DNA of 63,986 nt, filler included, from Stramenopiles sp. TOSAG23-3 (taxonomy: Eukaryota), in the NCBI GenBank assembly GCA_900128585.1. It is 4 parts of 4 records of this genome, joined end to end, with 100 filler letters (N's around TTAATTAATTAA, not from the genome) between each part and the next. Parts side by side here need not be neighbours in the genome. Positions count along the whole stretch, not along the records: positions 33,022 to 49,387 come from LT642490.1; 3 more parts are not named here. One strand, written 5' to 3'. The notes under the pieces are model-generated. The model was not told the DNA's origin. It was given only the letters and a program-made list of their open reading frames with translations, and ran no database searches. The translations under genes were made by a program, and so were the position numbers. Shown here piece after piece: positions 2,681-44,912 of the stretch. Position 1 is the first letter of the stretch; the number at the start of each line of letters is the position of its first letter.

Positions 2681-3643
2681 ATGGATAAATGGGGATATAA
2701 GCAGTTGTGTACCCAACTAGATGAAATTACGGCAAGGTTAGACGGCCTCAAAACGAAACGTAAGGAGGAGGAAAGGTTGGAAGAGGGGAAACGGAAGCTT
2801 AAAGAAAAGAAACTTTCAGAGAAAATTTTTATATCGACTCAAACTAACATGATTTCCGACTTGCTCGATCAATTTGACGTGGACAATGGGGCAGTTGGTG
2901 AGCTCGACTACAACGCAGAAGCCATTCGTCTTTTTCCTCAACTAGGTTTATACAAACAACAGAACGTTTTAAAATCGAAGAACAACATGGCGTGGTGCGA
3001 AGCCCATCCAATATACTGTGGGGGAAGAAACGGAAACGCAAAAGTATTTGTTGGTAACATCATGACAGCAAACAACATTGATTACCTTGATGAGTTAAAT
3101 ATTTCCCACATTGTCGATTGTCAAGGATCAAAAAGCAGAAGTTTTGCAGAAGAAGAAGAAGAGTGCTGCAACCGTGGTCGGAAAAGAAACAAAAAAATCT
3201 TTCGATTCCAGATTGAGAAACATTATTCGTATTGCTATGATTCAGGAAAGGGGAAGATAATGGAAAATCAAAGAAAAAACGCAGGCGAGATGAAAGTGAA
3301 CGAACTTTTGAGAACGCGGGTCAAATGCCAACATGTTCCAATTAAAGATTCGACAGAGGGTGTTTTAAAATTTTTCCAACCAACATTTCAATGGATTGAT
3401 CGTGCCCTTGAAAATGGCTACAATGTATTAATACATTGTTTGGCGGGCGCGCATAGGGCAGGAACAACCGCAATTGCATACTTGATGCACAGAGCAAAGC
3501 TTGATGTTCGATCGGCGATTATTTCTGCGAAACTATGCCGTCCTATTATTTCTCCTATTGGTAGTTTCCCAAACCTGTTGATTCGGTTAGACATGGCCTT
3601 GAAAGAAAAAAGAGCCGATGAAAAAAAAGGGGTGAAGAAATAA
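2681..3643 (+). CDS. Dual-specificity protein phosphatase family protein
   Basis: Catalytic CX5R loop VLIHCLAGAHRAGT, upstream VFVGN...LDELNISHIVDC, downstream AYLM. First ATG at 2681. Confidence 0.85.
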   Translation: MDKWGYKQLCTQLDEITARLDGLKTKRKEEERLEEGKRKLKEKKLSEKIFISTQTNMISDLLDQFDVDNGAVGELDYNAEAIRLFPQLGLYKQQNVLKSKNNMAWCEAHPIYCGGRNGNAKVFVGNIMTANNIDYLDELNISHIVDCQGSKSRSFAEEEEECCNRGRKRNKKIFRFQIEKHYSYCYDSGKGKIMENQRKNAGEMKVNELLRTRVKCQHVPIKDSTEGVLKFFQPTFQWIDRALENGYNVLIHCLAGAHRAGTTAIAYLMHRAKLDVRSAIISAKLCRPIISPIGSFPNLLIRLDMALKEKRADEKKGVKK

Positions 3644-10053: not shown

Positions 10054-11901
10054 ATGGAACCATCGAAAAAAATAAACGTTTTGGTGGGCGTGACTGCCTC
10101 TGTCGCAGCGGTTAAAACCCCCGAGTTGATCGATGGGTTATTTGAGAGTGGGCGAGTTGGGCGGATTGATTTAATCGTTACGGAAAGCGCAAAGCATTTC
10201 TTGAAAAGCGTCAATTACAAGGGCAAGCCTGTGTTTGACAGTTTGCGGGCTGTGCGTGAAAAGCACACCTGCGCCTCCGATCCTGTGCGTGAATCCGATA
10301 GGGAACAGTTTGGCGACGAGGGATTTTTTGGGGAGATTGGAACGCGGGCACCCCTCAGCAAGTTGCGCGTTTTTACGGATGCGGACGAATGGAAGAATTA
10401 CAAAGATGTAAACTTAGACCCAGTGCTGCACATTGAGTTGGCCAAGCGGAACGACGTGCTTTTAATTTCGCCTCTGTCGGCGGGCAGTCTTTCAAAAATT
10501 GTCAACGGTTCTTGCGACAATTTAGTTACCACGACGGTTCGTGCATGGCCGTTTGACTTGGCCACTACAGATGACGATGGCAATAGTAGTACAAAACCAT
10601 TTTTCGTGGCTCCGGCCATGAACACCGTAATGTGGAATCAGGGTATTACGCAGCAGCACGTGGGCGTGTTAAAAACCCGAGGAGTTGCCATGATCGACCC
10701 GGTTGTTAAGCTCCTCGCATGCGGGGATACGGGCAAAGGCGCCATGGCAGACGTGGAGACCATTGTCGCACGTGCCACCGGCCCCGTCACCCCCACTGTA
10801 CAAACGCCCCCACCTTCCCCTGGTGTCCGTATGGTCGACCTGTCCCCAAACAGCAAAGCAAACGCGCCCTACGATGGTTCCCAAAAAGCTTTCTTCGAGA
10901 TGAACTCTGCGCCACCAGACCTCAGCACGGTGTCCAGGAAAGTTTCTCTGTTTTTAGAAAAAATCCCGACCAACAAAACAGTTGTACTTGTCACTAGTGG
11001 TGGCACTACGGTGCGTTTAGAAAGAAACACCGTTCGGAGCATTGATAACTTTAGCACGGGAGGCAGGGGCTCTGCATCGTGTGAACATTTTTTACGTCGT
11101 GGTTGTTGCGTTATATTTCTACACCGACGGTTTTCGATTCTTCCGTTTCAACGGAACTGCCGCCCCCTCTTCGAAGAACTGGACGACAGCCTGGAATCCT
11201 TTCCCGATAAAATAATGTCCGCCGCGACGGAATGCAGAACAAGGATTAGCCTGTGCGCCCAAGAAAACGAAGACATACGCCTTTTGAGTGTGCCCTTTTC
11301 TAGCGTGGTGGAATACCTGTTTTATATGCGATGCATCGTTACCCAGCTTGACCCCTTGGGGAAACGCGCAATGCTGTATCTTGCTGCGGCCGTCAGCGAC
11401 TTTTATATTCCAGAGGTGGAGATGGCCAGGGATAAAATTCAGTCCACCCCAGAAGGCTTGACTCTTCAGTTGCGCGCCGTCCCCAAAATGCTGGCAATGG
11501 TCAGGTCCTCTTGGGCGCCCAATATTTTCTTTGTCAGTTTCAAGCTTGAGACGGAAAGCCACAATTTTCTGTTGATGAAGGCGAAGCGGGCGATGGAGAA
11601 GTACGGCGTAGATGTGGTGGTTGCAAATATGCTGCAAAATTACAAGAAAGAAGTGACGCTCATTACGCGAAAAAGCGAATCGTTAAGACAAGTTAGCGAC
11701 GCGGAGGGGATGATCTTGACAAAGGTTCAAGTTGTGCTCAACCCAAACCTGCCCGACCGTGACTTAGAGCAAGATATAGTGAGTGTGGTGCTCCAGCAAC
11801 AGGCGCACACATTAGACCCCCTCAAGCATACCGCAATGGATGCCTATCCCGTGTTCAACGGGTATCCATATTTGACCGTCTATCGCGTAGAAGATCTATG
11901 A
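10054..11901 (+). CDS. coaBC: Bifunctional phosphopantothenoylcysteine decarboxylase / synthetase (PPCDC-PPCS fusion)
   Basis: N-terminal HFCD flavoprotein (GVTASVAAVK, VLHIELAK, PAMNTVMW, LACGDTGKGAM), Pro-rich linker, then PPCS (VTSGGTTVRLE, IDNFSTGGRG, YLAAAVSDFY, VSFKLET, VVANML). Confidence 0.92.
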   Translation: MEPSKKINVLVGVTASVAAVKTPELIDGLFESGRVGRIDLIVTESAKHFLKSVNYKGKPVFDSLRAVREKHTCASDPVRESDREQFGDEGFFGEIGTRAPLSKLRVFTDADEWKNYKDVNLDPVLHIELAKRNDVLLISPLSAGSLSKIVNGSCDNLVTTTVRAWPFDLATTDDDGNSSTKPFFVAPAMNTVMWNQGITQQHVGVLKTRGVAMIDPVVKLLACGDTGKGAMADVETIVARATGPVTPTVQTPPPSPGVRMVDLSPNSKANAPYDGSQKAFFEMNSAPPDLSTVSRKVSLFLEKIPTNKTVVLVTSGGTTVRLERNTVRSIDNFSTGGRGSASCEHFLRRGCCVIFLHRRFSILPFQRNCRPLFEELDDSLESFPDKIMSAATECRTRISLCAQENEDIRLLSVPFSSVVEYLFYMRCIVTQLDPLGKRAMLYLAAAVSDFYIPEVEMARDKIQSTPEGLTLQLRAVPKMLAMVRSSWAPNIFFVSFKLETESHNFLLMKAKRAMEKYGVDVVVANMLQNYKKEVTLITRKSESLRQVSDAEGMILTKVQVVLNPNLPDRDLEQDIVSVVLQQQAHTLDPLKHTAMDAYPVFNGYPYLTVYRVEDL

Positions 11902-18265: not shown

Positions 18266-21200
18266 CTAAACTGCCAATTGTTCGTCAACCAAACTGTACA
18301 AGTCTTTCACCGTGTCGTCCTTTCCCTTTTGCGTCAAAAAGTTGCTATAGTGAACCGGGAATTGGTTCCGTGCCAACTCCACATCCATTCTATTTTCGTA
18401 GCACAGCCAGTGGCAAAATGGTATTAAAATGGAATCCTTCCATAGGTCAATTGCCTTATCCTTCAAAGGAAGAAAGTCTTTTGAATGCTTCAAGCTATTT
18501 AACCGTTTTTCAACCGCGGCATTGATTTCAGAAGGCGCCTTTGTGCCCTGTACCATCAATCTGCAACTAATTTCACGGATAGCTCGTAACATAATGTACC
18601 ACGCCGACTTCAACTTCATTTGCCTGCATGCGCCGTCCGCAGTGAAGCAAAGGGGCACAGAGCCCTCGCTTTGGTACTCTTGGGCGACTTCGCGCACAAT
18701 CTGGCGAAAATCTGTAGGTTTGCGAAACTCAAGGCTTTGAATGACCGTTTTGAACCCGTACATTCTACCAAACAAATAGGTTAGAATTGGGTGAGAAATA
18801 GGCACGGTAAAAAATGGACTCGTTAAACCAATCAAAACGATTCGATTCTCCTCTAATAGGACTATGTGCTGATGACTGACCGACTCGTATTCAAAAACAA
18901 TGGTGCAACCCGTAGCCAAAACAAAATTCACCAAGCTTTCCTTGGACTCCATGTTCAACAACATGTTGCACAAGTGGGTCGCAATTTCATTGGCAAATGA
19001 ATAGTGCTGGCTTGCAGGCAAGTGATCCCTAAAATTTCCCAGTTCTGACCAGGGAATGTACACTTTTAAATTCTTCGAGCCGGCGTACAAAGTGACGGAG
19101 CCATCGGAGAGTGTGAGAAATCCAAATTGTCCGTTTTCTCCGTTTGCTTTGTACGTCGGCAAAATCCTCGTAACCCCATCCAAGTCGAATTCTAACTCGG
19201 CGTCCTTGTCTCCATCTATCAAATTATCTTCCACCCCAGAAAACTTTTTCAGGCCAAAAGCACTTAGTTTTTTGCCCGCATTGTCCTTTTTCCACGACAG
19301 CCCCCTGCGTATGGTTTGCAGCAAATGGGGGGAACGCTTGTAAATCACATCGTCGGGTGTGCCCCTGGCATCCACTTTCGCCCTGAATCCTGCTACTAAG
19401 TCTTCCCCGGTCCCTTCCTCTTCCTGAACGGAAACATCAGGCTGGCCCATGCAGTAGTTGTAGTATTCTTCAGAAAAACGCCCGTAGTCGCATGCCTGGA
19501 AGTGCAAACTAACGTGAGATATTTGAAGCCATGCAATTGACCAAATTTTCTTCGTAAATTCTTTGTCTTGGTCTACTGAATCGTTCAGGGTGTTTCTGTC
19601 ACCTTCAAGTATTTCCTCGCACTTTCTCTTGAAGTCCACGAGGGCCTCTTTCTGAAGTCTCACGTTGAAATCAAAAACTCCACTGGGCGGGGGGCTGTTT
19701 GAGTGTTCAGCTTGGATCAATTTGACGTACTTTCTCTTCTCCTTCATGGCTTCCTCCAAAGGCTCTTTTAACCGTTTAATACGTGTCTGTACCTTCGATA
19801 TCTGTTTTTGCAACTGTTTAATTGGTTTTCCGATTTCGCCCGCCTTTCTAAGGGCGGCTTTAAACGTTTGGAATTCCTCCGGGTCGCAGTCTTCCGAGGG
19901 TTTGTTGAGCTTTTTACTCGTCCCAATTCGATACGGGCGCAGAATTTCATCTACCTGGGCTCCAATCGACTGTCTTATTTGGCTCAGTTCGGTGAATGTT
20001 TTGCTCAGCTCGGCTACTTCCGGTTCAATTTCCGCTCGTTTGGCGTCAATCTGCCGTTCGACGTCTCTTATTTGGATGTTGAGGGTCTTCACCTCCTCTC
20101 TGTCAACATGGCCAATTTGGCACAGTGTTGTCTCCAGCTTTGCATCAAATGAAACCTTTTCATCGCTGATCTTGGTTGCGAGCTCGATCCAAGCCATTCC
20201 CGCATTTGACATGACTTTCTTATGCAAACCCTCTGCAATAGTCAAGTGTCCCAACGGCCGTTCTATATACTTTCCAGTCAATTTGTTCTGCACTGTCGCC
20301 GGAGAAAAATATACACCTTCGTAAAAATAGACACCGTCCACGAAAATTTCAAAACACCCCAGGTTCTCGGCGGAGTCCGCTTGGCCGACAAACTCTTGCA
20401 GTGCAGGAGCGTGGGTATCGCACGCGTTTACTCCAAAAGCGTACGTGAAGGATAAATTGTTGGTCACCAGGATAGGGTCTGTATCAGTGCGGTAAACAGC
20501 GGTGCCATTTAAAAGTTTGCTGAAAAACGTTTTCGCCATCGTTTGATCGATGACAGCAAAACCAATGCGAGACACTTTCTCGATGCTTGTGCACGATTTC
20601 ACATCAATGGCCGTTCTTTGAACAAATGCATCGTACCCAGATTTTAAGTCTTTGCAAACGTCTTCAATACTCCGTCTGTACGTCTTCAAAATGCCAGAGC
20701 ACATAGACTCACTCATGTTCTGCACAAAGGTTTGGAACGCCGGCTGCCGCTCTGCCCATATGCTGGTCAGTTTTCGTTTCATGTACCTTACCTCAGTCTT
20801 TGACGGTGCTTCGCTGCTGCCAGCAACCACCCGTTTTCCCCCCTCGCCTTCCTCCACTGATTTCAGGTATTGGGAGTATTTTTCTTTGTCAAAATGCAAC
20901 GTCGATTTGCCAGTTTCGTTGGAGGGCAGCGAAGGTATGCTGTATATCTCTTTCCGGTGGTGATCATCGTAAAATAAGCTTCTTTCAGAAAAGGGAATTT
21001 GGTACCCCTTCCCGAACACCCGCTCAAATTTTCCGTCCTCGTTCTGAGCAACTTCTCGCCCCAAGGCTAATAGCTGAAGAAAGAGTTCATCCGTAAACCA
21101 GGCAGTCAAAAGCGGAGAGTTCTCGGTTGCACAAATAGTAGACACTTCAATCGTATCGTCCACTTGGTCAAATTTTTCTGCTTGTTGCTTCTGCAAACTG

Positions 21201-21838
21201 GCGAAATTCGATAAAACTGCCAAAGAGTTGCAGCTCAGCCCGGTTAAGTTTGCGTGGTCGCTACGAAAGTACAATGCGGCTGCAGAGACCAAAAATTGGT
21301 GCTTTAAACTGGCCGTATTCCTTACGCAAACTATGTTTTGTACCCCGTACAATTTTTTGAAATCATCGACTCTCGAAGGGAAAAAATTTATCTCGCAGAT
21401 CCCCCCTTTCTTCAGCAGAGATTTTTTCTCCTTGAAGGCTAACTTTTGGTTTTGCTGGTAGAGCACAAACGGTGAAGGTTGGTTTTCCAAACCATGGTAG
21501 ACTTCTCCTTTGACATATTCCTTGTCGTTATCAAAGTAAGGCGTGCTTTCGTGCAAATGCAGGAGTTTAAACGCCCTAAGTAGGGTCCCTTTTCCACCGC
21601 ACGGCAAAAAATTGGCGGTTAGCAAGTACCGCGATTCAACAAGAAAAGAATCTTTGCCTTGGCCCTTTTCGTTCTCCGCCAGCTGCGCCATTTTACTAGT
21701 TATACTATCTCGACCTTTCGTCGGCTCGTCTTCAAAAAACTCGTTCGTTTGCTTTATCAAATAGAGATCTTGGGATTCGCTGTTGTATGCATAAATACAG
21801 ACATAAAATCTTAAACTATAGAGTTTCCTTGCATACAT
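18266..21838 (-). CDS. Putative Trl1/Rnl1-family ATP-dependent RNA ligase with N-terminal P-loop kinase-like and 2H phosphoesterase-like domains
   Basis: C-terminal nucleotidyltransferase motifs KANG (I), SKN (Ia), FEY..HQHI (III), EGSV (IV), KLK (V) and YIMLRAIRE; N-terminal FLPCGGKGT; central HLT...SN. Start may be the ATG at 21691. Confidence 0.75.
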   Translation of the reverse strand: MYARKLYSLRFYVCIYAYNSESQDLYLIKQTNEFFEDEPTKGRDSITSKMAQLAENEKGQGKDSFLVESRYLLTANFLPCGGKGTLLRAFKLLHLHESTPYFDNDKEYVKGEVYHGLENQPSPFVLYQQNQKLAFKEKKSLLKKGGICEINFFPSRVDDFKKLYGVQNIVCVRNTASLKHQFLVSAAALYFRSDHANLTGLSCNSLAVLSNFASLQKQQAEKFDQVDDTIEVSTICATENSPLLTAWFTDELFLQLLALGREVAQNEDGKFERVFGKGYQIPFSERSLFYDDHHRKEIYSIPSLPSNETGKSTLHFDKEKYSQYLKSVEEGEGGKRVVAGSSEAPSKTEVRYMKRKLTSIWAERQPAFQTFVQNMSESMCSGILKTYRRSIEDVCKDLKSGYDAFVQRTAIDVKSCTSIEKVSRIGFAVIDQTMAKTFFSKLLNGTAVYRTDTDPILVTNNLSFTYAFGVNACDTHAPALQEFVGQADSAENLGCFEIFVDGVYFYEGVYFSPATVQNKLTGKYIERPLGHLTIAEGLHKKVMSNAGMAWIELATKISDEKVSFDAKLETTLCQIGHVDREEVKTLNIQIRDVERQIDAKRAEIEPEVAELSKTFTELSQIRQSIGAQVDEILRPYRIGTSKKLNKPSEDCDPEEFQTFKAALRKAGEIGKPIKQLQKQISKVQTRIKRLKEPLEEAMKEKRKYVKLIQAEHSNSPPPSGVFDFNVRLQKEALVDFKRKCEEILEGDRNTLNDSVDQDKEFTKKIWSIAWLQISHVSLHFQACDYGRFSEEYYNYCMGQPDVSVQEEEGTGEDLVAGFRAKVDARGTPDDVIYKRSPHLLQTIRRGLSWKKDNAGKKLSAFGLKKFSGVEDNLIDGDKDAELEFDLDGVTRILPTYKANGENGQFGFLTLSDGSVTLYAGSKNLKVYIPWSELGNFRDHLPASQHYSFANEIATHLCNMLLNMESKESLVNFVLATGCTIVFEYESVSHQHIVLLEENRIVLIGLTSPFFTVPISHPILTYLFGRMYGFKTVIQSLEFRKPTDFRQIVREVAQEYQSEGSVPLCFTADGACRQMKLKSAWYIMLRAIREISCRLMVQGTKAPSEINAAVEKRLNSLKHSKDFLPLKDKAIDLWKDSILIPFCHWLCYENRMDVELARNQFPVHYSNFLTQKGKDDTVKDLYSLVDEQLAV

Positions 21839-22709: not shown

Positions 22710-25082
22710 TTACAATGCTTCTGTCGACAAAAGTAACAAGCCTTTCGGCCCGCTTTTGAACTGGGCTTTCCTCTCCTCCCCTTCAAATTCGTCGTCGCCG
22801 TAATCGTCTTCGCTTTCTTTCCTATTCTGCTCCTCTTTCAAGCGCTTGCGCATGCGAGTATTGCTGGACTGCTCTGCGATGGCAGCGTTTGCTACGCGGC
22901 GCAACAAGTCACTCTGCTCTCGGCGCAGTTGCTCCTTTGCATCGATGATGCCCATTGATTGGCCGGCGCCGCTGGAAATGCTATTTGTGCTATCCTGCAT
23001 GGACTGGTGGCTGGAATGACTCGGGCCCTTGACACGGGCCAGGTTAGATTCGTACCGTTGCTCTATTTCCGTTCGTAAGAACGGCGTGTCGTTCAGCTGC
23101 TCCTCGGCCTCGATGCCGATGGCAATGTCCATGTCCTCCGGAATGTCTACGCGTGGAATGCGATCGCCGTGGCTTCGGAGGGGCTTGGAGATTGTCATCT
23201 CGCCCAGGCGCTCTTGCACACAGGCCCGCTTATAACTAACGCTGGAGCGTCGGCGGTTGTCCAAGCTGCTTGCGATCAACGACTCGCCTTGGGAAGCTGA
23301 GTCTGGGTCAAGGGCCTTGATGGCATACGCGTGCACGGTTTCTTTCAAGTGATTCTCCAAAAATCCCAGTTGCGACAAGACTTTGAAATCAGAGGGCCTT
23401 AGCCTTTCAATCACATTCTCGTAATCGTCGGCAGCAGCACTTTTTTCGTTCTCTTTGGAATCGCCCTCTGCAGTCGACGCCGCTTTGACGGGGCTCGCCC
23501 CCGGGCCGTCGGAATCTTCCATTGCCGAGCCTCCCGCGCGCAGATAGCAGGTATTGACTTGGTCAGACAGCAGCAACATTTGGTCTTTCCGCTCCCGGAA
23601 GGCATGGATACCATCGTGCACCGTTTTCTCCAGCTTGTTGACCTGCACCCTTAGCGTATCCGCCAAGGCTTTCGTCCCAGCATCCGCGGAGTCCCCGCTC
23701 ATCTTGTTCTCTTCCATCTTCTTCAACTCCTTGGTCAGCTTTCTAACTTCCTTCTCCAAGATTCCGATTCGGTTCTTCTCGTTCTGCATCTCTTTATTTA
23801 CACGAAATCGGTTGTCGTCGTCTTTAGCGAGCAAATCGACGACATGATCTCGCAGGTCCTCCTCGCTCATTTCGGTTCGGAGCTTTGCCAAGTTGGAGTC
23901 GATCAAAATCTGTTGCCACTTCTCCGACAACTCGGTGGTCATTTCTTGCATAACGTCGGGCTGCATCTGGGTGGCCCCGCCACTGTTCTGCATTGGGTCT
24001 TCCTTCTTGGAGGTGGCATGCGGCGACGATACCGGAGACGGGCCGCTGTCCACACTCTTGTTCCGGTGCTCCACCGTAATGGCCTGCGCTTCGCGCTCCC
24101 TTGCCCGCTGGGCCTTTGCTTCTTCGCGCTTGCGGTTTCGCTCTTGGCGCTTTGCTTTCTCTTCGGCCTCACGGGCTAATTTCTCTAAGCGTTCTTGCTC
24201 TTGCTCGGCTTTCGTGATCTTTTCTGCCTCTTCATCAAACTCAACCAACTTCTCGTTCCACTCGTTCATCGCTTGCTTGTATTCGCTGGAAAGCTCGTCC
24301 CGCTCCCGCTGGGTGTCGTCCATCTCCTGCTCGTCCTTTTTCACTTGGTCTTTCAGGGCGTCCACTTCAGTGCGCATTTCGGAAAGGATTTTTTGAAATG
24401 TGGTTCTCTCTCTTCTCAAATTGTCGATATCGTACTTTATGGTCATGTTGTCCCCCACCGCGTCGTTCACTTCGGCCCGTTTCGTCATCGTCCGCCGCTT
24501 CAGGATCTCGCAGGACCGGTCTAACATTCTCTGGTTCAAAATGGAGCAGTTGTGGGCACCTGTGACTGGAAGAATCACCACTGCCTCGGAATCCTGCGCT
24601 CTGGGGGCCATGTTGTGCGACGCTGTCCGCTCGAGGCAGGCGACCGTCTGCTGCTTCATGAACTCGATGTCTTCCGTGCAGGTCTCGATTTTATCTTTCA
24701 TTTTTTCGATCCGGGACGTAAAGCGCTTCTTCAAAGTTTCCAAAAAGTTGGTGTCGTTTTTCAAATTGATTGTCTTTGTCGATGCTAACAAGGAGCCGGT
24801 CGTCTCCGTGTGCAAAGTGGACTTGATTTCCCGGATTGGGGACTGCTTTGGAACGTACAGCAAATGCACGGGACTTGCGGAGCGCGTGCCGATGTCGTCG
24901 AGCATTTCCGCCACTCGCATCGCCTCTTCCGGTTCCGCGCCCCGTAAATCGTACGTATGGAGCAGCGCTTTCAAAGCCTTTTCCCGCCGCGCCGTCCGCA
25001 TACGCTTTCGGAGCTCTTCCTCCTTTAACATGGCTTGCCCTTTGCTCTTCTTCGCGGACGGGCGCGGAGGTCGTGAAGACAT
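22710..25082 (-). CDS. Coiled-coil protein, outer dynein arm docking complex (ODA-DC2/CCDC63/CCDC114)-like
   Basis: Long coiled coils; IDNLRRERTTFQKI and VLSQLGFLE resemble conserved DC2/CCDC114 blocks. Confidence 0.6.
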   Translation of the reverse strand: MSSRPPRPSAKKSKGQAMLKEEELRKRMRTARREKALKALLHTYDLRGAEPEEAMRVAEMLDDIGTRSASPVHLLYVPKQSPIREIKSTLHTETTGSLLASTKTINLKNDTNFLETLKKRFTSRIEKMKDKIETCTEDIEFMKQQTVACLERTASHNMAPRAQDSEAVVILPVTGAHNCSILNQRMLDRSCEILKRRTMTKRAEVNDAVGDNMTIKYDIDNLRRERTTFQKILSEMRTEVDALKDQVKKDEQEMDDTQRERDELSSEYKQAMNEWNEKLVEFDEEAEKITKAEQEQERLEKLAREAEEKAKRQERNRKREEAKAQRAREREAQAITVEHRNKSVDSGPSPVSSPHATSKKEDPMQNSGGATQMQPDVMQEMTTELSEKWQQILIDSNLAKLRTEMSEEDLRDHVVDLLAKDDDNRFRVNKEMQNEKNRIGILEKEVRKLTKELKKMEENKMSGDSADAGTKALADTLRVQVNKLEKTVHDGIHAFRERKDQMLLLSDQVNTCYLRAGGSAMEDSDGPGASPVKAASTAEGDSKENEKSAAADDYENVIERLRPSDFKVLSQLGFLENHLKETVHAYAIKALDPDSASQGESLIASSLDNRRRSSVSYKRACVQERLGEMTISKPLRSHGDRIPRVDIPEDMDIAIGIEAEEQLNDTPFLRTEIEQRYESNLARVKGPSHSSHQSMQDSTNSISSGAGQSMGIIDAKEQLRREQSDLLRRVANAAIAEQSSNTRMRKRLKEEQNRKESEDDYGDDEFEGEERKAQFKSGPKGLLLLSTEAL

Positions 25083-33393: not shown

Positions 33394-36300
33394 ATGAGAT
33401 GGAAAGTAGAAACCGCGGGTGCGCCAGACTTGGAAAAAAAGCGAGACCGCAACGGAGCGCGGCCCACCTCCGCGGCAAAGGATGATATCGTGGTTCGTCA
33501 AATAGTTGGGGAATTAGGAAGGCCGTTGTCGGCACCCTCCACCAGAGCGAAAAAAGATAGTGCAAATTATAGAGTTAGAAGACGGAAAAAAGTCACCGCA
33601 ATCATGCGCACCCCGAACTGGCGCAGGGATACGAAGAAATCAACGTCTGAAGACCTGGAACCATACCTTCAACAGTTGGAAAGGAAAAGGCTGCTCTTGC
33701 AGTTGAGGCGTACCGAGGGTGCCAGGCGCCCGGCAACGTCTTCGGGCTCACGGCTTGTCGAAAAAGGCACCGGAATGTTCAAAAGAACTGAGAAGATTTT
33801 GTCGTTTACGAAAAAGTATTCCGTTGGAACAAAGGCCATCGCTGCACGTGCAAAAGGCCTGGGGAGATGGTTGGAACACTCGGCGCTGCCGCTGAGCATA
33901 AGAGGGCGGCCACTTCTTGCAGACGATTTGAAGCATGGCCCGACGTCACAAATACACAACGTCTTCAAAAGCTGTTTTACAGAACTTACAAAAGAGTGCT
34001 CGCTCTTGTGTGGGGAACACGGGAAACTTATGGATAAAATCTGGAACTACTACGTGGAAGCTTTGGTGGAAGCGTACGAACTGAGGGGACAGGGGAGCCA
34101 AGGGAGCATATTGTCTTCGAGTGAATCGCTGGCGAGCAGCGTAGGGAAGGGGAAGCTGTTGAACAAAGCAAGTCCGAGGGTAACGACTGAGATCCAGGCC
34201 CCTGCTAAAAAAGTAGGAGATGAAAGTACTGGCCAAAAGTTCAAAGGGAAAGTTGACGACGGTGCTGCCACAATGCCGTCAAAGATTACCAGGCGCTCGT
34301 CACTTTTGCGAAAGAATCCAACGCTCTCGCCGATAGCCAAAGACGAACGGGCGCACAACAACCTAGAACACTTGAAACGCGATGTGCACGCATTGAAACG
34401 GTTGGGAATGGCTACGCCATTGTTCCATGCGCATGATGATCCATCCGTTTCCGGAGATGACCATGGATCGGAAAAAGGCATCAACAGAAAGGCATTAATT
34501 CCCGAGGCCCTTCAGAAGAGAATCCGCATCATTGCGGAGCAGGCCGTTTCCCTCCGTCGTTTGAGACAGAGCATATTCTCTGAGTACGTAAGCGGTATAA
34601 ACGCTGAAATAAAAGCCACTAACATGGAGCATACAGAGGATGCGTTCCAACGAGAGGTTGTAGATGTGCCCGAAATTCTGCAGTTAACGGACGAAGAAAA
34701 GCAAAAGAAAAATATGATGGAATTGGTGGAACGGCGCGCACGCGAGGCGAACGAACGTTTGAAAAAGAACAAAACACTGTCGACGAGTGAAAAGGCAAAA
34801 AAGATTGAAGAGGAAAAAGAAATGAAGCGGGCGTGTACCCTAATTCAGTCAGCGTACCGTCAGCGGCAAGCCCGGGAACGGATGCAGTTGCTGCGTAGCC
34901 AAGCGCTGTTGAAAGCAAACCGGTTTGATTTTAATGCATACATTCGATCAAGGACGACGAAGAAGGGGAAATGGCAAGGCTCAATGGAGCTCCATGATGC
35001 GACCAAAATTATGGAAGAGTACGTCTGGGAAAGCAAGCGGCTGGTGCGGGACATGAGTATGGACTGGTGGAAGCAAAAGAAAGAAACGCAAAGAAAGGAA
35101 GAACGTTTACAAGCGACGTGCGAACGAAAGAATGAATCGTTGGCGCAGATTCAGCACCAAGTTTCAGGCTTGATAAAGAGCGTGGGCGACTTTGTCGCAA
35201 CCCTCAATTTTGACAATAAGTCGGAAAAGGTAAAACGCGTCCTTGCCGAGTTACAGGATGAGCTGAACGATTCTAGTAAATCGTTCACCGACGACGGTGG
35301 GGAAAAGCATTGCCGTAAGGTGTGTGACTTAACGACAAAAATTTTGAACAGCAGCACAAAGGTTTACAAAATGAAGAGGGACAACGACATGCAAACCGAC
35401 GGCGACCCAAACGCAGAGCCGGTGGTAAAGAAGGCCGAGGTCAAAGAAACCAAGAAGAAAAAATTGTCCAAGAAACAAAAGTCTCGTTTGAAACGACGAC
35501 GGATAAAGTTGCAAATAGAGCTTGGTAGCCTTTCAGACTACGTTCACTTTGATAGCATTGTAAAAGGGACCCCAAGCACAATTGATAAGCTTCTTCGTTT
35601 TATTGACGAGGTTTACCATGAAAAGATTGAGTACGATGAAGTGGACGATAAGGAAAACCACAAACGGCACAGCATGGCAGAATTTGTGCACGATCATCTT
35701 TTTCGAAAGTATGGGCTCCGTTCCCTCGCAGACAAGCACACTTTCAATTTAGTCTCGAGCTTAAAATTGCACATCGATCACCCAAAAATTAAATTGTTCG
35801 CTCGTTTTTGCCAGTGTGGGATCAAACATTGCGATCCCTTGCCTCTTGCAGCGCTCGATTTTTTCTTGTACGTCGTGGCATATTTTCACACCTTGGAAGA
35901 CAAATACGGGAAGGATCTGCTGTTCACCGACCCGGACATTCCCACGAAAACATTGATGAACGTTCAGTCGGCTCTGTATGCTGTGCCCACCGTTATGGGC
36001 GTACTGCTAAACAACGGACCCAAAATGACTGGTGGGCTAGAGCTGGACCAGCTGAAAATTATGTTCAACGTCAAACTGAAAGTTAAAGAAATGTCGTTCA
36101 AGCACCACGAATCCCAGGTTATAGAGGTCGACATCCTGAACGACATTCTGATGAACTGCTTCGAAAGCATTTGGGACGCCTTGGAAGACATGTTGCGGAC
36201 TTTGTTTGCGGAAGGGGACGTCGACAGTGACGGTGTAATGACATTTGATGAGTTCAGTGACCTTGTCTTGAGTCTACATCCCGAAACAAGTGAAAACAAA

Positions 36301-36966
36301 CTGCACAGAATGTTTAAATTTGCCTTAAAGTCCTTGGATGACCCCACCAGTCATGAAATTACGCCTGATGCCTTTCTTCTTGCAGCGCAAGAACTCGGCT
36401 TTCTGTCAGGGGATCACAAAACATTCATGCCACCCAGGCCGATGAAAATGAGTGAGCTTATCGGTAAATCGGATGATGGGAACGACGTTGGAGAATTATG
36501 GGCCCTTCAAAAGGAGCACGATGCCTCTCAGTACACTGGAAAAGAATTAACGGATGCGGAATGGACCCAGCAACGCGCTCAGAAGAAAGAAAAACAGTTC
36601 GAAAAGCAATTTGAAGTTCACGAACAAACCTGGACAGATGTGAAGGGGCACTTGGATGCGAACAAAGAAGCTCTGGAAAACCTCAAGGATGACCCAATGT
36701 TGAAAGAAAAGGTAGATGAAATCCACGTTCTGCGAACACTCCTGGAGGATCAAATTGAAAACAAACAAGATGCTAAAGAGGCGAGAAGTACGCTTCATAA
36801 ATTGAATAGACGAGTCTCGAACATACCCCTTCTGAACGAAGAAGAAATGGCCGCGCTAGAACAAATTGTTGCAGTCGACCAAGGAGACGATAGCGATTTG
36901 GATGAAGACCTCGAGGATCACAGGGAACCTAAAGAGGAGGAACGGGAAGAGGGAACGGGGTTGTGA
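33394..36966 (+). CDS. Probable flagellar protein: axonemal dynein light-chain-like segment, IQ motif, EF-hands
   Basis: CFTELTKECSLLCGEHGKLMDKIW (p28/AXDND1-like); IQ LIQSAYRQRQAR; EFVHDHLFRKYGLRSLA...IKLFARF block; EF-hand DVDSDGVMTFDEF. Confidence 0.65.
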   Translation: MRWKVETAGAPDLEKKRDRNGARPTSAAKDDIVVRQIVGELGRPLSAPSTRAKKDSANYRVRRRKKVTAIMRTPNWRRDTKKSTSEDLEPYLQQLERKRLLLQLRRTEGARRPATSSGSRLVEKGTGMFKRTEKILSFTKKYSVGTKAIAARAKGLGRWLEHSALPLSIRGRPLLADDLKHGPTSQIHNVFKSCFTELTKECSLLCGEHGKLMDKIWNYYVEALVEAYELRGQGSQGSILSSSESLASSVGKGKLLNKASPRVTTEIQAPAKKVGDESTGQKFKGKVDDGAATMPSKITRRSSLLRKNPTLSPIAKDERAHNNLEHLKRDVHALKRLGMATPLFHAHDDPSVSGDDHGSEKGINRKALIPEALQKRIRIIAEQAVSLRRLRQSIFSEYVSGINAEIKATNMEHTEDAFQREVVDVPEILQLTDEEKQKKNMMELVERRAREANERLKKNKTLSTSEKAKKIEEEKEMKRACTLIQSAYRQRQARERMQLLRSQALLKANRFDFNAYIRSRTTKKGKWQGSMELHDATKIMEEYVWESKRLVRDMSMDWWKQKKETQRKEERLQATCERKNESLAQIQHQVSGLIKSVGDFVATLNFDNKSEKVKRVLAELQDELNDSSKSFTDDGGEKHCRKVCDLTTKILNSSTKVYKMKRDNDMQTDGDPNAEPVVKKAEVKETKKKKLSKKQKSRLKRRRIKLQIELGSLSDYVHFDSIVKGTPSTIDKLLRFIDEVYHEKIEYDEVDDKENHKRHSMAEFVHDHLFRKYGLRSLADKHTFNLVSSLKLHIDHPKIKLFARFCQCGIKHCDPLPLAALDFFLYVVAYFHTLEDKYGKDLLFTDPDIPTKTLMNVQSALYAVPTVMGVLLNNGPKMTGGLELDQLKIMFNVKLKVKEMSFKHHESQVIEVDILNDILMNCFESIWDALEDMLRTLFAEGDVDSDGVMTFDEFSDLVLSLHPETSENKLHRMFKFALKSLDDPTSHEITPDAFLLAAQELGFLSGDHKTFMPPRPMKMSELIGKSDDGNDVGELWALQKEHDASQYTGKELTDAEWTQQRAQKKEKQFEKQFEVHEQTWTDVKGHLDANKEALENLKDDPMLKEKVDEIHVLRTLLEDQIENKQDAKEARSTLHKLNRRVSNIPLLNEEEMAALEQIVAVDQGDDSDLDEDLEDHREPKEEEREEGTGL

Positions 36967-42695: not shown

Positions 42696-44912
42696 CTACT
42701 TTAAGCCCATTACTTCAAGCAACAAGTCCACCAGACTATTCAACCACACTCTGTCATTCCCCATATCTTGGAGTAAGTGAGTGGGGAGCCTGGAATATCC
42801 TACTTTCATCCCAACAATGGCCCCAACAATCTGGGCATTTCCGCTTGTGTCTCCTCCTTCGGACACAATTTTCATAATGGCGTCAATAAAGTTTGGATCA
42901 TTAATGTGAGCAGCCCAGTACGCGACGCCCACCGTTTTGAAAGCGTCTTTGCAGTGCTCCAGATCATCCAATTGCAGAGGAACCACCCCATCTTCCACTT
43001 CCAGAAACAGCAAAGTTCGCAACTCTTCTTGGTAATCGTTGAACCGTGAATCCTTGCAAGCAAGACTAAAGCATTCTAGCTGCAACTTCACCATCCCGGG
43101 ACGGTCTTTCTGTAAATTTGGGGAGTTTAGCATCTTTGCTATTAAATTGTTCAAACACACAGAGGCGGCAAGCGCTTTGGTAGATTTGTGAGTTATTGCA
43201 TTCGCAATCTTAGTTCCGTGCGTCATTTTATCAATGTCTGTAAAGTGTCGTAAAGCCATGGGCATTGCCCTTAGCACCGCGTCATTGTTGTCGGAATGGG
43301 GGTTATCTTTGTGGTCCCCGTACACTCGCTTTGCGTGGTGCTGCGCGTTGAGAATATAATCTTCTATGTCCCCCTGGACCACAGATTGCATGTAATTGCT
43401 TAATCGATGTGGCAATTTGTCGATGTCGGGAAAGCCGCATCGAATCATATGTGCCAGTCGATACGCCATGTCCTTTTCTTCAACCCTTCCTCCGAACGCG
43501 GCGAAGGATGCCATTGCCGTGATAAAATAATCAAAGGTAATGCTCCACTGCCCAGGCCTGTACGGAAACCTCTTTTTTATTCTCTTCAGCAAAGATCCGT
43601 GCTTGGAAGTTAGTTTTCGGGATTTAATCTTGTCGCCGTACAGGTCTTTTATCTGCTTCTTGCTCAGCCCGAATGCGGGTGAGCCCACCACAGACCCCAT
43701 GCATGCGCCGTACACAAACCCTTTTACACGCTGCAACAACTTGTCCCTGCCGACTGCCGAGTCAGCTATGCAGTGTTTTATGTAAGAGGGGTGCCGGGGA
43801 AGGGGTGTCAATGGGGGAGAGATCATTTCAATAGAGTAAAAGGAAGGGAAACCGTGCGAGCATGCAGAGCACAAGCACGGGGGTGCGTTGGCGTAGCCCA
43901 GGCTGAACAGTATTGTCGCGCCGGTCTGGCGCGTCGGGTCCTTGCTATTGGGCGCAGTTCCATACCGAGCCCGATGCAGCCCTCGAGTAACCGATTTAAG
44001 GCGAGGGTGCTCAACAAACCGATCGCACGCAGTACACCAACATGCCATTGAAGGGGAGACGCTGATAACGTGGTTCTTCTCTTCCCTGTGGTTCTGGATA
44101 TACCTATCACAGTAAATACCCCAGCAAGATGGCCACAAGCATACCCACGCGTTAAGCCCGCGGCATCGATTGAGTGGTGTGTGCCTTTCGCAGCAAGTAA
44201 TGCACGCCTTTTTTAAATTGCTGGCGACATATTTAGAAATTGGCAACTCGCCAAACTCTGCGTCCGTAAAATCGGAGTTAAAGTTGTAAGTTCTATCGTT
44301 CCTCACCAACCTATTCATTTCGTCCATAATTTTATCCAGATGTTTGCAGGACTTGATTTGGAAGTCTAGCATCCTGGCGGCCAAAGCTTCTGTCTCTTTG
44401 TCCAGTTTATCTTTGTCGTCTTCTTTTGTTTCTGGGACATATATCAAGGTTACTTCTGTGATATCGGGTGGCCTATCGTCTACGTGTACAATACTCAAAC
44501 TATTTACGCAGTGACGCTCATTTGAAACGGTTCTAAACTCACCTACATAAACTTTCCCTACGTATATTCCACAATTTTGGCAAACTGACAGTGCGACTTC
44601 TTTGTCGTTCTCGTACTGAGTCTCGGCGTTCAACAAACTGTTTTCATAGCACATCTGAAACGATGCCCAGCCTGCTCCTCCGTCAAACTTTGCCTTGGAT
44701 GCGAACAGAGGCTTTTCGCACCCTTTGCAAGCAAAATATCCTTTTCTGGGGAACTTATGCAAATATTTCCCCCTCCACGGCGGTTCATCGACCCTTTCGA
44801 TCAGAGTTTTGAATTCGGCCGCAGTGAGACAGTCCCTCCATAAACTCTCGCTTTTACCTCCAGGGAAGGATCGTTTTACAGCCGTAAATTTACCGGGAGA
44901 TAATGCTGCCAT
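42696..44912 (-). CDS. MsrB(SelR)-like + ZnF-UBP + ADP-ribosylglycohydrolase-like fusion protein
   Basis: FACKGC..PLF..KAKFD..GW.SF, CQNC and RHCVNS (MsrB); CITC..WVCL..C..YCDRY..H..H..WCTACD (ZnF-UBP); RVKGFVYGACMG, GQWS, NNDAVLR, ITH and GGDTSGNAQIVGAIVG (ARH). Confidence 0.8.
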   Translation of the reverse strand: MAALSPGKFTAVKRSFPGGKSESLWRDCLTAAEFKTLIERVDEPPWRGKYLHKFPRKGYFACKGCEKPLFASKAKFDGGAGWASFQMCYENSLLNAETQYENDKEVALSVCQNCGIYVGKVYVGEFRTVSNERHCVNSLSIVHVDDRPPDITEVTLIYVPETKEDDKDKLDKETEALAARMLDFQIKSCKHLDKIMDEMNRLVRNDRTYNFNSDFTDAEFGELPISKYVASNLKKACITCCERHTPLNRCRGLNAWVCLWPSCWGIYCDRYIQNHREEKNHVISVSPSMACWCTACDRFVEHPRLKSVTRGLHRARYGTAPNSKDPTRQTGATILFSLGYANAPPCLCSACSHGFPSFYSIEMISPPLTPLPRHPSYIKHCIADSAVGRDKLLQRVKGFVYGACMGSVVGSPAFGLSKKQIKDLYGDKIKSRKLTSKHGSLLKRIKKRFPYRPGQWSITFDYFITAMASFAAFGGRVEEKDMAYRLAHMIRCGFPDIDKLPHRLSNYMQSVVQGDIEDYILNAQHHAKRVYGDHKDNPHSDNNDAVLRAMPMALRHFTDIDKMTHGTKIANAITHKSTKALAASVCLNNLIAKMLNSPNLQKDRPGMVKLQLECFSLACKDSRFNDYQEELRTLLFLEVEDGVVPLQLDDLEHCKDAFKTVGVAYWAAHINDPNFIDAIMKIVSEGGDTSGNAQIVGAIVGMKVGYSRLPTHLLQDMGNDRVWLNSLVDLLLEVMGLK

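What the first reader, a model, noticed from the sequence alone, without database searches (positions are those of the whole stretch)
42696..44912. MsrB - ZnF-UBP - ADP-ribosylhydrolase triple fusion with degenerate catalytic sites
Seen: one 738-aa ORF. The MsrB domain (about 44870-44480) keeps both zinc CxxC pairs and the catalytic RHCVNS, but HLGHVF reads YVGKVY. A ZnF-UBP domain lies at about 44205-44010. The ARH/DraG domain (about 43745-42710) has GDALG as GSVVG, TDD as SIT and DxDT as DTSG, so most Mg2+ ligands are gone. Known: these modules act in methionine-sulfoxide repair, binding of the free ubiquitin C-terminus, and ADP-ribose removal; I know no protein that combines them. Inference: a scaffold or sensor integrating oxidation, ubiquitin and ADP-ribosylation signals, for example a reader of dual ADP-ribose/ubiquitin marks.
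Basis: partly seen in the sequence, partly recalled or inferred. Interest (0 to 1): 0.8.

Follow-up and report, generated by a model that had tools for sequence, protein, structure and literature searches.

The report
Conserved dead-enzyme MsrB–ZnF-UBP–ARH fusion protein
This is a real, conserved gene of an uncultured marine eukaryote that joins a ubiquitin-tail-binding zinc finger to two enzyme domains with lost key catalytic residues, so it most likely binds rather than catalyses.

Summary

It is not a chimera. Independent marine metagenomes cover both domain junctions. Four further lineages carry full-length orthologues at 50-64% identity, and a distant clade at about 30-35% has the same three domains.

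All domains are under strong purifying selection: dN/dS is about 0.08 between two orthologues.

The enzyme sites are degenerate across the family:
- Five of seven ARH metal-site residues are lost.
- Both MsrB histidines are replaced.
- The MsrB catalytic Cys is kept only in the window's own species (Ala, Ser or Val elsewhere).

Four of the six HDAC6 ubiquitin-tail pocket residues are kept.

The closest relatives are uncharacterised two-domain ZnF-UBP+ARH proteins with intact motifs, found in several eukaryotic supergroups.

Best reading: a non-catalytic adaptor or reader centred on the ZnF-UBP. No ligand was tested.

I found no paper describing either architecture.

The parts
42696..44912 (-). 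Whole coding sequence: 738 codons plus stop, no intron
   Evidence: An identical 738-aa protein lies on 12 contigs from 4 kinds of source. No splice-like joint appears in DNA or RNA contigs. The orthologous loci L002-L004 carry single ORFs of 743-746 aa.
44463..44855 (-). MsrB/SelR-like beta-tent domain (residues 20-150). The zinc CxxC pairs 62-65 and 111-114 are kept. The His pair is replaced by Y117/K120, and the nucleophile position 135 is variable in the family.
   Evidence: Pfam SelR E 7.2e-24. PDB MsrB hits at E 2.8e-14, with alignments. Model pLDDT is above 90 and Foldseek gives 3cez TMt 0.88.
44508..44510 (-). Codon 135, TGC (Cys), at the MsrB catalytic position. Orthologues have AGT or AGC (Ser), Ala or Val.
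44355..44462 (-). Acidic linker (residues 151-186), low model confidence. Its C-terminal part, AARMLDFQIK, is invariant among the five orthologues.
   Evidence: One non-synonymous population variant, T162K, lies here.
43953..44354 (-). HDAC6-type ZnF-UBP (residues 187-320). Clade-specific insertions lie at about 192-236 and 241-251, the latter with conserved H244 and C250.
   Evidence: Cys/His columns are conserved in 12-13 of 13 sequences. Pocket mapping uses.
43728..43952 (-). Inter-domain segment (residues 321-395) carrying C346-x-C348-x-x-C351 and H374-P-S-Y377, present in all 8 fusion-clade rows of alignment A2 (7 with the MsrB domain plus the fragment P0052). H353 occurs only in the window clade. 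None of these occur in the two-domain relatives.
   Evidence: Model confidence is mostly low. dN/dS is 0.14.
42699..43727 (-). ARH/DraG-fold domain (residues 396-738) with 5 of 7 metal-site residues lost
   Evidence: Pfam E 1e-28. Model pLDDT is above 90, and Foldseek finds MJ1187 at TMt 0.79 plus ARH3 and DraG. The ligand list comes from PMC9738213.

Best explanation
The gene encodes a cytosolic, non-catalytic three-module protein.

Origin. It probably arose from the widespread eukaryotic two-domain family 'ZnF-UBP + active ARH' by adding an N-terminal MsrB domain. After that, both enzyme domains lost their catalytic chemistry but kept their folds. The likely origin rests on the shared domain order and is an inference. 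The loss of catalytic residues is shown.

How it most likely works (inferred). The HDAC6-type ZnF-UBP still captures an exposed C-terminal tail, from ubiquitin or a ubiquitin-like protein. The dead ARH and dead MsrB domains act as binding or scaffolding surfaces. The protein is therefore an adaptor or sensor in a ubiquitin-linked pathway, not a reductase or hydrolase.

The remodelled MsrB pocket keeps conserved basic residues (K/R120, R133, H134). The ARH cleft keeps the family-wide N543, R548 and T574. Each may still hold a small ligand or peptide. That is speculative.
For: The gene is real.
- DNA contigs from two independent marine metagenome runs cover all 30 of 30 bins at 95% identity or more (11 of 12 pieces at 99% or more) and bridge both domain junctions: X8 records 18 and 19, X9 records 21-23.
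- 20 of 24 listed runs hold the stretch, from 11 studies.
- RNA-library contigs lie on it: X15 covers 22 of 30 bins. The polyA library X18 covers 11 of 30 bins, and all 4 of its pieces fall inside the ORF.

It is conserved.
- Full-length orthologues reach 64, 54, 52 and about 50% identity.
- A distant clade (P0049 863 aa, P0051, P0052) shares the architecture.
- Identity to the four orthologues is 44-70% across the domains and linkers.
- Nei-Gojobori dN/dS between L002 and L003 is 0.08 overall, 0.08 for the ZnF-UBP, 0.08 for ARH and 0.14 for the inter-domain segment. For MsrB, pN is 0.12 against a saturated pS of 0.77.
- Of 3 variants inside the ORF in metagenome contigs, 2 are synonymous and 1 lies in the linker.

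The ARH site is dead. These positions are the metal-site residues listed for ARH3 in PMC9738213 (passages). The same paper relates ARH2's lack of activity to changes in these motifs.
- Glu41 equivalent: F414.
- Asp77 and Asp78 equivalents: I458 and T459.
- Asp316 equivalent: S690.
- Thr317 equivalent: G691.
- Kept: S457 (Thr76 position; ARH1 has Ser there) and D688 (Asp314 position).
- All five two-domain relatives in alignment A2 keep GDAxG..TEF, WTDDT and GDADT.

MsrB is degenerate.
- The His pair is replaced by Y/F/H117 and K/R120 in 7 of 7 fusion sequences.
- Position 135 reads C, A, S, S, S, V, S.

The ZnF-UBP is retained.
- Cys/His columns are conserved in 12-13 of 13 sequences.
- HDAC6 W1143, R1155, Y1156 and W1182 correspond to W256, R270, Y271 and W292 (roles from 10.1101/268557).
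Against: - No binding was tested.
- Two carboxylate-bonding tyrosines of HDAC6 are changed: Y1184 to T294 and Y1189 to F299. The double mutant R1155A/Y1184A abolishes ubiquitin binding in HDAC6 (PMC3268394, passages). Ubiquitin-tail binding may therefore be weak, lost or retargeted.
- The window species does carry Cys135, so residual reductase chemistry is not excluded for this species.
- The quick tree of ARH domains puts the fusions on a long branch. It does not resolve them inside the ZnF-UBP+ARH proteins, so the proposed origin rests on shared domain order alone.
- RNA-library contigs do not prove transcription. X15 also covers an intergenic piece.
- Neighbouring genes are unrelated and not syntenic between species, so context gives no functional support.
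Confidence: 0.5

Rival explanations
1. It is a structural or complex-subunit pseudoenzyme whose function no longer involves ubiquitin tails, ADP-ribose or methionine sulfoxide. The comparison is with ARH2/ADPRHL1 and with ARH-fold chains found inside large assemblies. The three folds are kept only as scaffolds.
For: - Five of seven ARH metal-site residues are lost, both MsrB histidines are lost, and two of six ZnF-UBP pocket residues are changed.
- ARH-fold chains occur in large assemblies among the PDB matches: mt-SAF23 (6sga/9hny) as weak sequence matches (E 0.8), and Ycf2-FtsHi motor chains 8xqw_G and 8xks_Q in Foldseek.
- ARH2 has shown no enzymatic activity (PMC9738213).
- Clade-specific invariant motifs have no counterpart in active relatives: AFGGxVExKDMAYRL, CKDSR and HPSYIK.
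Against: - W256 is invariant in 13 of 13 sequences. R/K270, Y/F271 and W/F/Y292 are kept throughout the fusion clade. That is hard to explain if the tail-binding pocket were unused.
- The family-wide cleft residues N543, R548 and T574 are kept in 12 of 12 sequences that cover them.
Confidence: 0.25
2. It is still an enzyme. Either it is a methionine-R-sulfoxide reductase in this species, using Cys135, or the ARH fold catalyses a metal-independent or different reaction, with the ZnF-UBP acting as a targeting domain.
For: - The RHCVNS motif with Cys135, both zinc CxxC pairs, W82, R133 and N137 are present in the window protein.
- One source names orthologues 'peptide-methionine (R)-S-oxide reductase', an automatic name.
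- Strong purifying selection is compatible with catalysis.
- D461 is invariant (13 of 13 rows) and D688 is kept in all 11 rows that cover it.
Against: - Cys135 is limited to the window's own 90% cluster, 3 of 18 members examined. The rest have Ala, Ser or Val. Selection on the family therefore does not act on this nucleophile.
- Both sulfoxide-binding histidines are replaced in 7 of 7 sequences. Their role is recalled from the MsrB literature and was not read here.
- ARH activity in characterised members depends on the residues that are missing here (PMC9738213).
Confidence: 0.15
3. It is an assembly chimera or a decaying pseudogene.
For: The Pfam zf-UBP score is below the cut-off, and catalytic motifs are degenerate.
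Against: - Independent metagenome contigs bridge both junctions.
- The identical protein lies on 12 contigs.
- Three loci from two other species carry the same uninterrupted architecture.
- dN/dS is 0.08.
Confidence: 0.01

Closest known systems
Uncharacterised eukaryotic two-domain ZnF-UBP + ARH proteins. Examples: Capsaspora owczarzaki XP_004347622.1 (P0058), and proteins of Cavostelium, Ploeotia and Rhodelphis (P0064, P0066, P0092), named by their sources.
   Same: Same order of an HDAC6-type ZnF-UBP followed by an ARH domain. HMMER aligns them to residues about 253-737 of the window protein in one stretch. Both have HDAC6 as the best solved ZnF-UBP match.
   Different: - They lack the MsrB domain, the ZnF-UBP insertions and the CxCxxC/HPSY segment.
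- They keep the canonical ARH motifs (GDAxG..TEF, WTDDT, GDADT) and Y/F at both pocket positions, Y1184 and Y1189.
- Their Pfam ARH E-values are 1e-56 to 1e-63, against 1e-28 here.
- I found no paper on them.
HDAC6 ZnF-UBP domain (PDB 3c5k, 3gv4, 3phd, 5g0f)
   Same: Sequence match at E 3.2e-7 and fold match at TMt 0.74-0.79. Zinc-ligand columns are kept. W1143, R1155, Y1156 and W1182 equivalents are kept.
   Different: - Y1184 is Thr and Y1189 is Phe.
- About 25 extra residues lie between the first Cys-His pair and the CxxC.
- An inserted loop carries conserved H244 and C250, and 'WP' is inserted in CLxxSC.
MsrB / SelR methionine-R-sulfoxide reductases (for example E. coli MsrB 6sym, human MSRB3 6q9v)
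   Same: Fold (TMt 0.80-0.88), two zinc CxxC pairs, the GW(A/P)SF tryptophan and the R-x-C-x-N-S motif in this species.
   Different: HLGHVF reads YVGKVY. There is no recycling Cys two residues before the Trp (Ala80). The catalytic Cys is not conserved among orthologues.
ARH family hydrolases (ARH3, ARH1, DraG, MJ1187) and the inactive paralogue ARH2/ADPRHL1
   Same: PF03747 match and fold. As with ARH2, the metal-site motifs are changed (PMC9738213).
   Different: It is not an orthologue of ARH2. It belongs to a protist subfamily whose active members carry ZnF-UBP, LRR, NADAR or PH domains at the N-terminus.

Membership tests
MsrB / SelR (PF01641) | Sequence and fold homology to the SelR domain | tested here: met
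   Pfam 84.4 bits against a cut-off of 24.9. PDB MsrB hits at E 2.8e-14. Foldseek TMt 0.80-0.88.
MsrB / SelR (PF01641) | Structural zinc site formed by two CxxC pairs | tested here: met
   CKGC 62-65 and CQNC 111-114, kept in the fusion sequences of alignment A2.
MsrB / SelR (PF01641) | Catalytic Cys or Sec in the R-x-C-x-N motif | tested here: inconclusive
   Present here as Cys135, codon TGC. It is Ala, Ser or Val in every other lineage, so only 3 of 18 members carry Cys, all from the window's own cluster.
MsrB / SelR (PF01641) | His pair of the HLGHVF motif that binds the sulfoxide (role recalled, not read here) | tested here: not met
   Y117 and K120 align to the two histidines of three solved MsrBs. 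The column reads Y/F/H and K/R in 7 of 7 fusion sequences.
ZnF-UBP (PF02148) | Pfam gathering score | tested here: not met
   12.5 bits against a cut-off of 22.7, E 0.18. Relatives pass or come closer: P0051 scores 30.1 bits and P0035 19.3 bits.
ZnF-UBP (PF02148) | Homology and fold of a solved ZnF-UBP, with conserved Cys/His zinc ligands | tested here: met
   HDAC6 at E 3.2e-7 and 1.3e-9 with the family profile. Foldseek TMt 0.74-0.79. C189, H191, C237, C240, C258, C263, C268, H275, H281, C293 and C296 are conserved in 12-13 of 13 sequences.
ZnF-UBP (PF02148) | Pocket for the free ubiquitin C-terminus (HDAC6 W1143, R1155, Y1156, W1182, Y1184, Y1189) | tested here: inconclusive
   Four of six are identical: W256, R270, Y271 and W292. 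Y1184 is T294 and Y1189 is F299. No binding assay or co-fold was run.
ARH / ADP-ribosylglycohydrolase (PF03747) | Sequence and fold homology | tested here: met
   Pfam 101.3 bits against a cut-off of 26.2. Foldseek finds MJ1187 at TMt 0.79 plus ARH3 and DraG.
ARH / ADP-ribosylglycohydrolase (PF03747) | Seven residues at the two-Mg2+ site (ARH3 Glu41, Thr76, Asp77, Asp78, Asp314, Asp316, Thr317; PMC9738213) | tested here: not met
   Only S457 and D688 are kept. F414, I458, T459, S690 and G691 replace the other five. Correspondence was made through the canonical motifs of the two-domain relatives in alignment A2, not through a direct alignment to ARH3.
ARH / ADP-ribosylglycohydrolase (PF03747) | ADP-ribose hydrolase activity | not testable with these tools
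   Needs an enzyme assay.
Two-domain ZnF-UBP + ARH proteins of eukaryotes (uncharacterised) | ZnF-UBP directly N-terminal to an ARH domain | tested here: met
Two-domain ZnF-UBP + ARH proteins of eukaryotes (uncharacterised) | ARH domain nested among theirs in a tree | tested here: inconclusive
   In the quick IQ-TREE of 45 ARH domains, the six fusions form one clade (SH-aLRT 99) on a long stem of 0.87. Its attachment point is unresolved. The ZnF-UBP+ARH proteins are themselves scattered, needing 4 changes.

The most novel reading that the evidence does not exclude
The ZnF-UBP+ARH module may be a dedicated system for conjugates between the ubiquitin C-terminus and ADP-ribose.

- The active two-domain proteins, found in several eukaryotic supergroups, would erase or process such conjugates.
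- The MsrB-fused form with a dead ARH site would be the matching non-hydrolysing reader. Its ARH cleft would hold the ADP-ribose and its ZnF-UBP would hold the ubiquitin LRGG tail.
- The ZnF-UBP pocket has lost the two tyrosine hydroxyls that bond the free carboxylate (Y1184 to T/S, Y1189 to F). That could let it accept an esterified Gly76.
- The remodelled, basic MsrB pocket would add a third, unknown contact.
Probability: 0.1. Interest if true: 0.8.

Novelty: new variant of a known kind. Interest (0 to 1): 0.5.

Why it matters
All three domains belong to well-known families, but this combination appears undescribed. So does the simpler ZnF-UBP+ARH pairing, which occurs in several eukaryotic supergroups. 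Six full-text searches found no paper on either architecture (searches returned nothing; one search returned one unrelated review).

A zinc finger that reads free ubiquitin C-termini is hard-wired to an ADP-ribose hydrolase fold. That suggests an old, unstudied link between the two modifications, at a time when ubiquitin-ADP-ribose chemistry has only recently been found in animals (PMC7615817, PMC7500938).

The window protein is a natural version with degenerate catalytic sites under strong selection. It could serve as a handle for finding what the module binds.

Its range is narrow: a few uncultured marine lineages. Its function is unknown, which limits the immediate impact.

Tried and rejected
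- **Own genome.** None is held. I could not test for paralogues such as a canonical MsrB, an active ARH, PARPs or Deltex in the same organism.
- **Word-based search with residues 185-395.** It returned only the query and P0002 among 145 candidates and added nothing.
- **Full-length AlphaFold model.** It left the ZnF-UBP at pLDDT 30-60, so I re-folded the middle region alone. Residues 326-396 stayed below 50.
- **Protein atlas.**
  - For the query there was no usable hit by features. The nearest structural clusters carried ARH only or SelR only.
  - For P0058, no cluster of 50 or more members combined zf-UBP and ARH.
  - Neither result bears on absence.
- **Gene neighbourhood.** Neighbours are GH5, MFS, GH20, a CHGN-like glycosyltransferase, an EF-hand protein, an AlkB-like oxygenase, an amidase and others. 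None of the window's ORFs of 200 aa or more between 30000 and 56500 recurs in L002-L004. Context therefore gives no clue.
- **Careful tree.** It did not finish in 300 s, so only the quick tree is reported.
- **dN/dS between the window gene and the other species.** Not usable, because pS is 0.87-0.95 and saturated.
- **Co-folding with ubiquitin or ADP-ribose.** Not run.
- **Lineage placement.** I did not place the organism in a lineage. Its proteins show only that it is a eukaryote: WW, RING, Ras and VPS13 domains.
- **Supplementary files of papers.** Not consulted.
- **RNA coverage gaps.** X15 left 8 of 30 bins empty and X18 left 19 of 30 empty. This is not evidence of anything.
Full report
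**1. The observation**

The window has one ORF at 42696..44912 on the minus strand, starting with ATG and encoding 738 aa.

Pfam gives the following:
- SelR/MsrB at residues 29-142, E 7.2e-24.
- ADP_ribosyl_GH at residues 398-712, E 1e-28.
- zf-UBP at residues 250-304, only E 0.18 (12.5 bits against a cut-off of 22.7).

The zinc finger is nevertheless real:
- The middle region alone matches the HDAC6 ZnF-UBP at E 3.2e-7, then USP33 at 0.008 and USP20 at 0.011.
- A profile of five orthologues matches HDAC6 at E 1.3e-9.
- A model of residues 181-396 has pLDDT 70-90 over about 185-325. It finds HDAC6 ZnF-UBP structures first in Foldseek, at E 6.6e-6, TMt 0.74-0.79 and rmsd 2.2-2.5. All 13 hits at E<=1e-3 are ZnF-UBP chains of HDAC6 or USP49.

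The full-length model has pLDDT above 90 over MsrB (about 20-150) and ARH (about 385-738). These match solved MsrBs at TMt 0.80-0.88, and MJ1187, ARH3 and DraG at TMt 0.65-0.79.

- CKGC is at 62-65 and CQNC at 111-114.
- HLGHVF reads YVGKVY.
- RHCVNS is at 133-138.
- GSVVG is at 406-410, S-I-T at 457-459 and D-T-S-G at 688-691.

It starts at C189-x-H191 and spans residues 187-320.

**2. Not an artefact**

The identical 738-aa protein is on record from 12 contigs and four kinds of source.

Of 24 listed sequencing runs, 20 hold the stretch, from 11 studies. Three rows may be the source of the window.

Contigs of two independent DNA runs, X8 and X9, cover 30 of 30 bins at 95% identity or more (11 of 12 pieces at 99% or more) and bridge both domain junctions.

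Contigs from two RNA libraries also lie on the gene. X15 covers 22 of 30 bins. The polyA library X18 covers 11 of 30 bins, and all four of its pieces fall inside the ORF. This hints at expression but does not prove it, because X15 also covers an intergenic piece.

No splice-like joint was seen.

**3. Relatives**

A word-based search found four full-length orthologue clusters:
- P0002, 64% identity.
- P0003, 54%.
- P0004, 52%.
- P0005, 50%, a fragment. The full 746-aa members are P0037 and P0041.

The exhaustive HMMER search returned 3975 hits at E<=0.001. Nearly all are single-domain MsrB or ARH proteins. It added a distant clade, about 30-35% identical:
- P0049 (863 aa) has SelR and ARH domains by Pfam, and its ZnF-UBP segment aligns with the window's.
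- P0051 has all three domains by Pfam, though its ARH part is cut short.
- P0052 is a fragment with ZnF-UBP and ARH only.

It also found two-domain proteins of 512-566 aa with ZnF-UBP plus ARH: P0058, P0064, P0066, P0092 and P0152, and P0062 and P0164. Their sources name Capsaspora, Cavostelium, Ploeotia and Rhodelphis, so several eukaryotic supergroups are represented.

The same ARH subfamily also occurs with LRR, NADAR or PH domains at the N-terminus. Targeting domains appear to be swapped on an ARH core.

**4. Selection**

Identity to the four orthologues runs from 44% to 70% across the domains and linkers.

For loci L002 and L003, which come from two other species, Nei-Gojobori values are as follows:
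- Overall: dN 0.135, dS 1.65, ratio 0.08.
- ZnF-UBP: 0.08.
- ARH: 0.08.
- Inter-domain segment: 0.14.
- MsrB: pN 0.12 against a saturated pS of 0.77.

Comparisons that include the window gene are saturated at synonymous sites.

Three variants inside the ORF were seen in metagenome contigs: two synonymous and one T162K in the linker. The 'neutral ORF' refutation therefore fails.

**5. Catalytic sites**

ARH. PMC9738213 (passages read) lists ARH3 Glu41, Thr76, Asp77, Asp78, Asp314, Asp316 and Thr317 as the residues at the two Mg2+ ions that are critical for activity. It relates ARH2's inactivity to changes in the TDDT and DTDT motifs.

In alignment A2, the five two-domain relatives keep GDAxG..TEF, WTDDT and GDADT. 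The fusion clades do not:

| Sequences | Motif 1 | Motif 2 | Motif 3 |
|---|---|---|---|
| Two-domain relatives | GDAxG..TEF | WTDDT | GDADT |
| Distant fusion clade | GDALG..TSG | WTPAT | GDASA |
| Window protein | GSVVG..AFG | WSITF | GDTSG |

Only the Thr76 and Asp314 equivalents (S457 and D688) survive. Five of seven are lost.

MsrB. Y117 and K120 replace the two histidines in alignments to three solved MsrBs, and in 7 of 7 fusion sequences the column reads Y/F/H and K/R.

The nucleophile column reads C, A, S, S, S, V, S. Of 18 members examined:
- 3 have Cys, all in the window's own cluster.
- 3 have Ala.
- 7 have Ser.
- 4 have Val.
- One (P0051) did not match the search pattern. It has Ser by alignment.

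The Cys codon TGC differs from the orthologues' Ser codons AGC and AGT at its first base. The family as a whole does not select for a reductase nucleophile.

**6. The ZnF-UBP pocket**

In HDAC6 the ubiquitin C-terminal carboxylate is bound by R1155, Y1156, Y1184 and Y1189, with W1143 and W1182 stacking on the Gly-Gly (10.1101/268557, passages). The double mutant R1155A/Y1184A abolishes ubiquitin binding (PMC3268394, passages).

Mapping by the alignment and the columns (13 sequences in A2: 8 from the fusion clades and 5 two-domain):

| HDAC6 | Window | Column across 13 sequences |
|---|---|---|
| W1143 | W256 | W in 13 |
| R1155 | R270 | R in 10, K in 3 |
| Y1156 | Y271 | Y in 8, F in 3, E and Q once each |
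| W1182 | W292 | W in 9, F in 3, Y in 1 |
| Y1184 | T294 | Y in 7, F in 2; T, S, M and L once each |
| Y1189 | F299 | F in 6, Y in 5, V and H once each |

All five Tyr at the Y1189 column are in two-domain proteins. All six Phe, and the Val and His, are in the fusion clades.

The aromatic cage and the basic gatekeeper are kept, but two carboxylate-bonding hydroxyls are gone. The zinc-ligand columns are conserved in 12-13 of 13 sequences.

The fusion clade also has an inserted loop with conserved H244 and C250. It has a conserved C346-x-C348-x-x-C351 and H374-P-S-Y377 segment that the two-domain proteins lack.

**7. Interpretation**

Shown:
- The gene is real and its three-domain architecture is conserved.
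- It is under strong purifying selection.
- Catalytic residues are lost in both enzyme folds across the family.
- The ZnF-UBP scaffold and most of its pocket are retained.

Inferred:
- The protein is a non-catalytic adaptor or reader centred on the ZnF-UBP.
- It derives from an active ZnF-UBP+ARH ancestor through gain of an MsrB domain.

The origin rests on shared domain order. The quick tree covers 45 of the 85 ARH domains found. I dropped near-identical cluster members and fragments, keeping one row per fusion lineage. The tree shows the six fusions as one clade (SH-aLRT 99) on a long stem of 0.87, but it does not resolve where that clade attaches.

In the known hybrid mark, Gly76 is esterified to the 3' hydroxyl of ADP-ribose (PMC7615817, passages), while canonical ZnF-UBPs need the free carboxylate. 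The loss of the two tyrosine hydroxyls could in principle relax that need. I keep this as the novel case, at about 10%.

**8. Context and literature**

The neighbours are ordinary, unrelated eukaryotic genes and are not syntenic with the orthologous loci.

Six full-text searches combined the domain names. Searches found nothing. One search found one unrelated review. I therefore know of no description of either architecture. About 1.7 million PMC articles and most subscription-journal papers were not searchable.

**9. Verdict**

This is a confirmed, conserved fusion of two degenerate enzyme domains with a ZnF-UBP. It is a new variant built from known families, and its ligands are untested. The wider and apparently unstudied ZnF-UBP+ARH family is the most useful lead to come from this finding.

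Noticed in passing
P0058, P0062, P0064, P0066, P0092, P0152, P0164 (proteins): A two-domain family joins an HDAC6-type ZnF-UBP to an ARH domain with intact catalytic motifs. Its sources name Capsaspora, Cavostelium, Ploeotia and Rhodelphis. I found no paper on it.
   Followed up: partly
P0145, P0162, P0191 (LRR); P0160 (NADAR); P0195 (PH): The same ARH subfamily also occurs fused to leucine-rich repeats, a NADAR domain (another ADP-ribose-processing fold) or a PH domain. This suggests interchangeable targeting modules.
   Followed up: no
window 43728-43952 (residues 321-395): A C346-x-C348-x-x-C351 and H374-P-S-Y377 segment is present in all 8 fusion-clade rows of alignment A2 (H353 only in the window clade). 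It is absent from the two-domain relatives and modelled with low confidence. It could be an extra zinc knuckle or a docking motif.
   Followed up: partly
window 44160-44192 (about residues 241-251): A loop inserted in the ZnF-UBP, specific to the fusion clade (about 9 extra residues, window residues 241-251), carries conserved H244 and C250. HMMER aligns C250 with the second Cys of HDAC6's CGDC, whereas MAFFT aligns C237/C240 there. The zinc ligands of this site are therefore ambiguous.
   Followed up: partly
window 10054-11901 (+): A 615-aa ORF combines the Flavoprotein (PF02441) and DFP (PF04127) domains. It looks like a fused phosphopantothenoylcysteine decarboxylase/synthetase.
   Followed up: no
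window 18266-21838 (-), 22710-25082 (-), 33394-36966 (+): Three long ORFs (1190, 790 and 1190 aa) have no Pfam match at E<=1e-5. The two 1190-aa ORFs are unrelated to each other (BLASTP E 3.4).
   Followed up: partly
window 2672-3643 (+): A dual-specificity phosphatase ORF also matches the Tc-R-P and PTP-SAK phosphatase families. These accompany ARH domains in large bacterial clusters.
   Followed up: no
L002 3807-9245 (-), L003 8573-12766 (-), L004 8383-9870 (-): In the three orthologous loci, a very long ORF on the opposite strand (495 to 1812 aa within the DNA held) lies just downstream of the fusion gene. It matched none of the window's ORFs of 200 aa or more between 30000 and 56500. I did not compare the three long ORFs with each other or scan them for families.
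   Followed up: no
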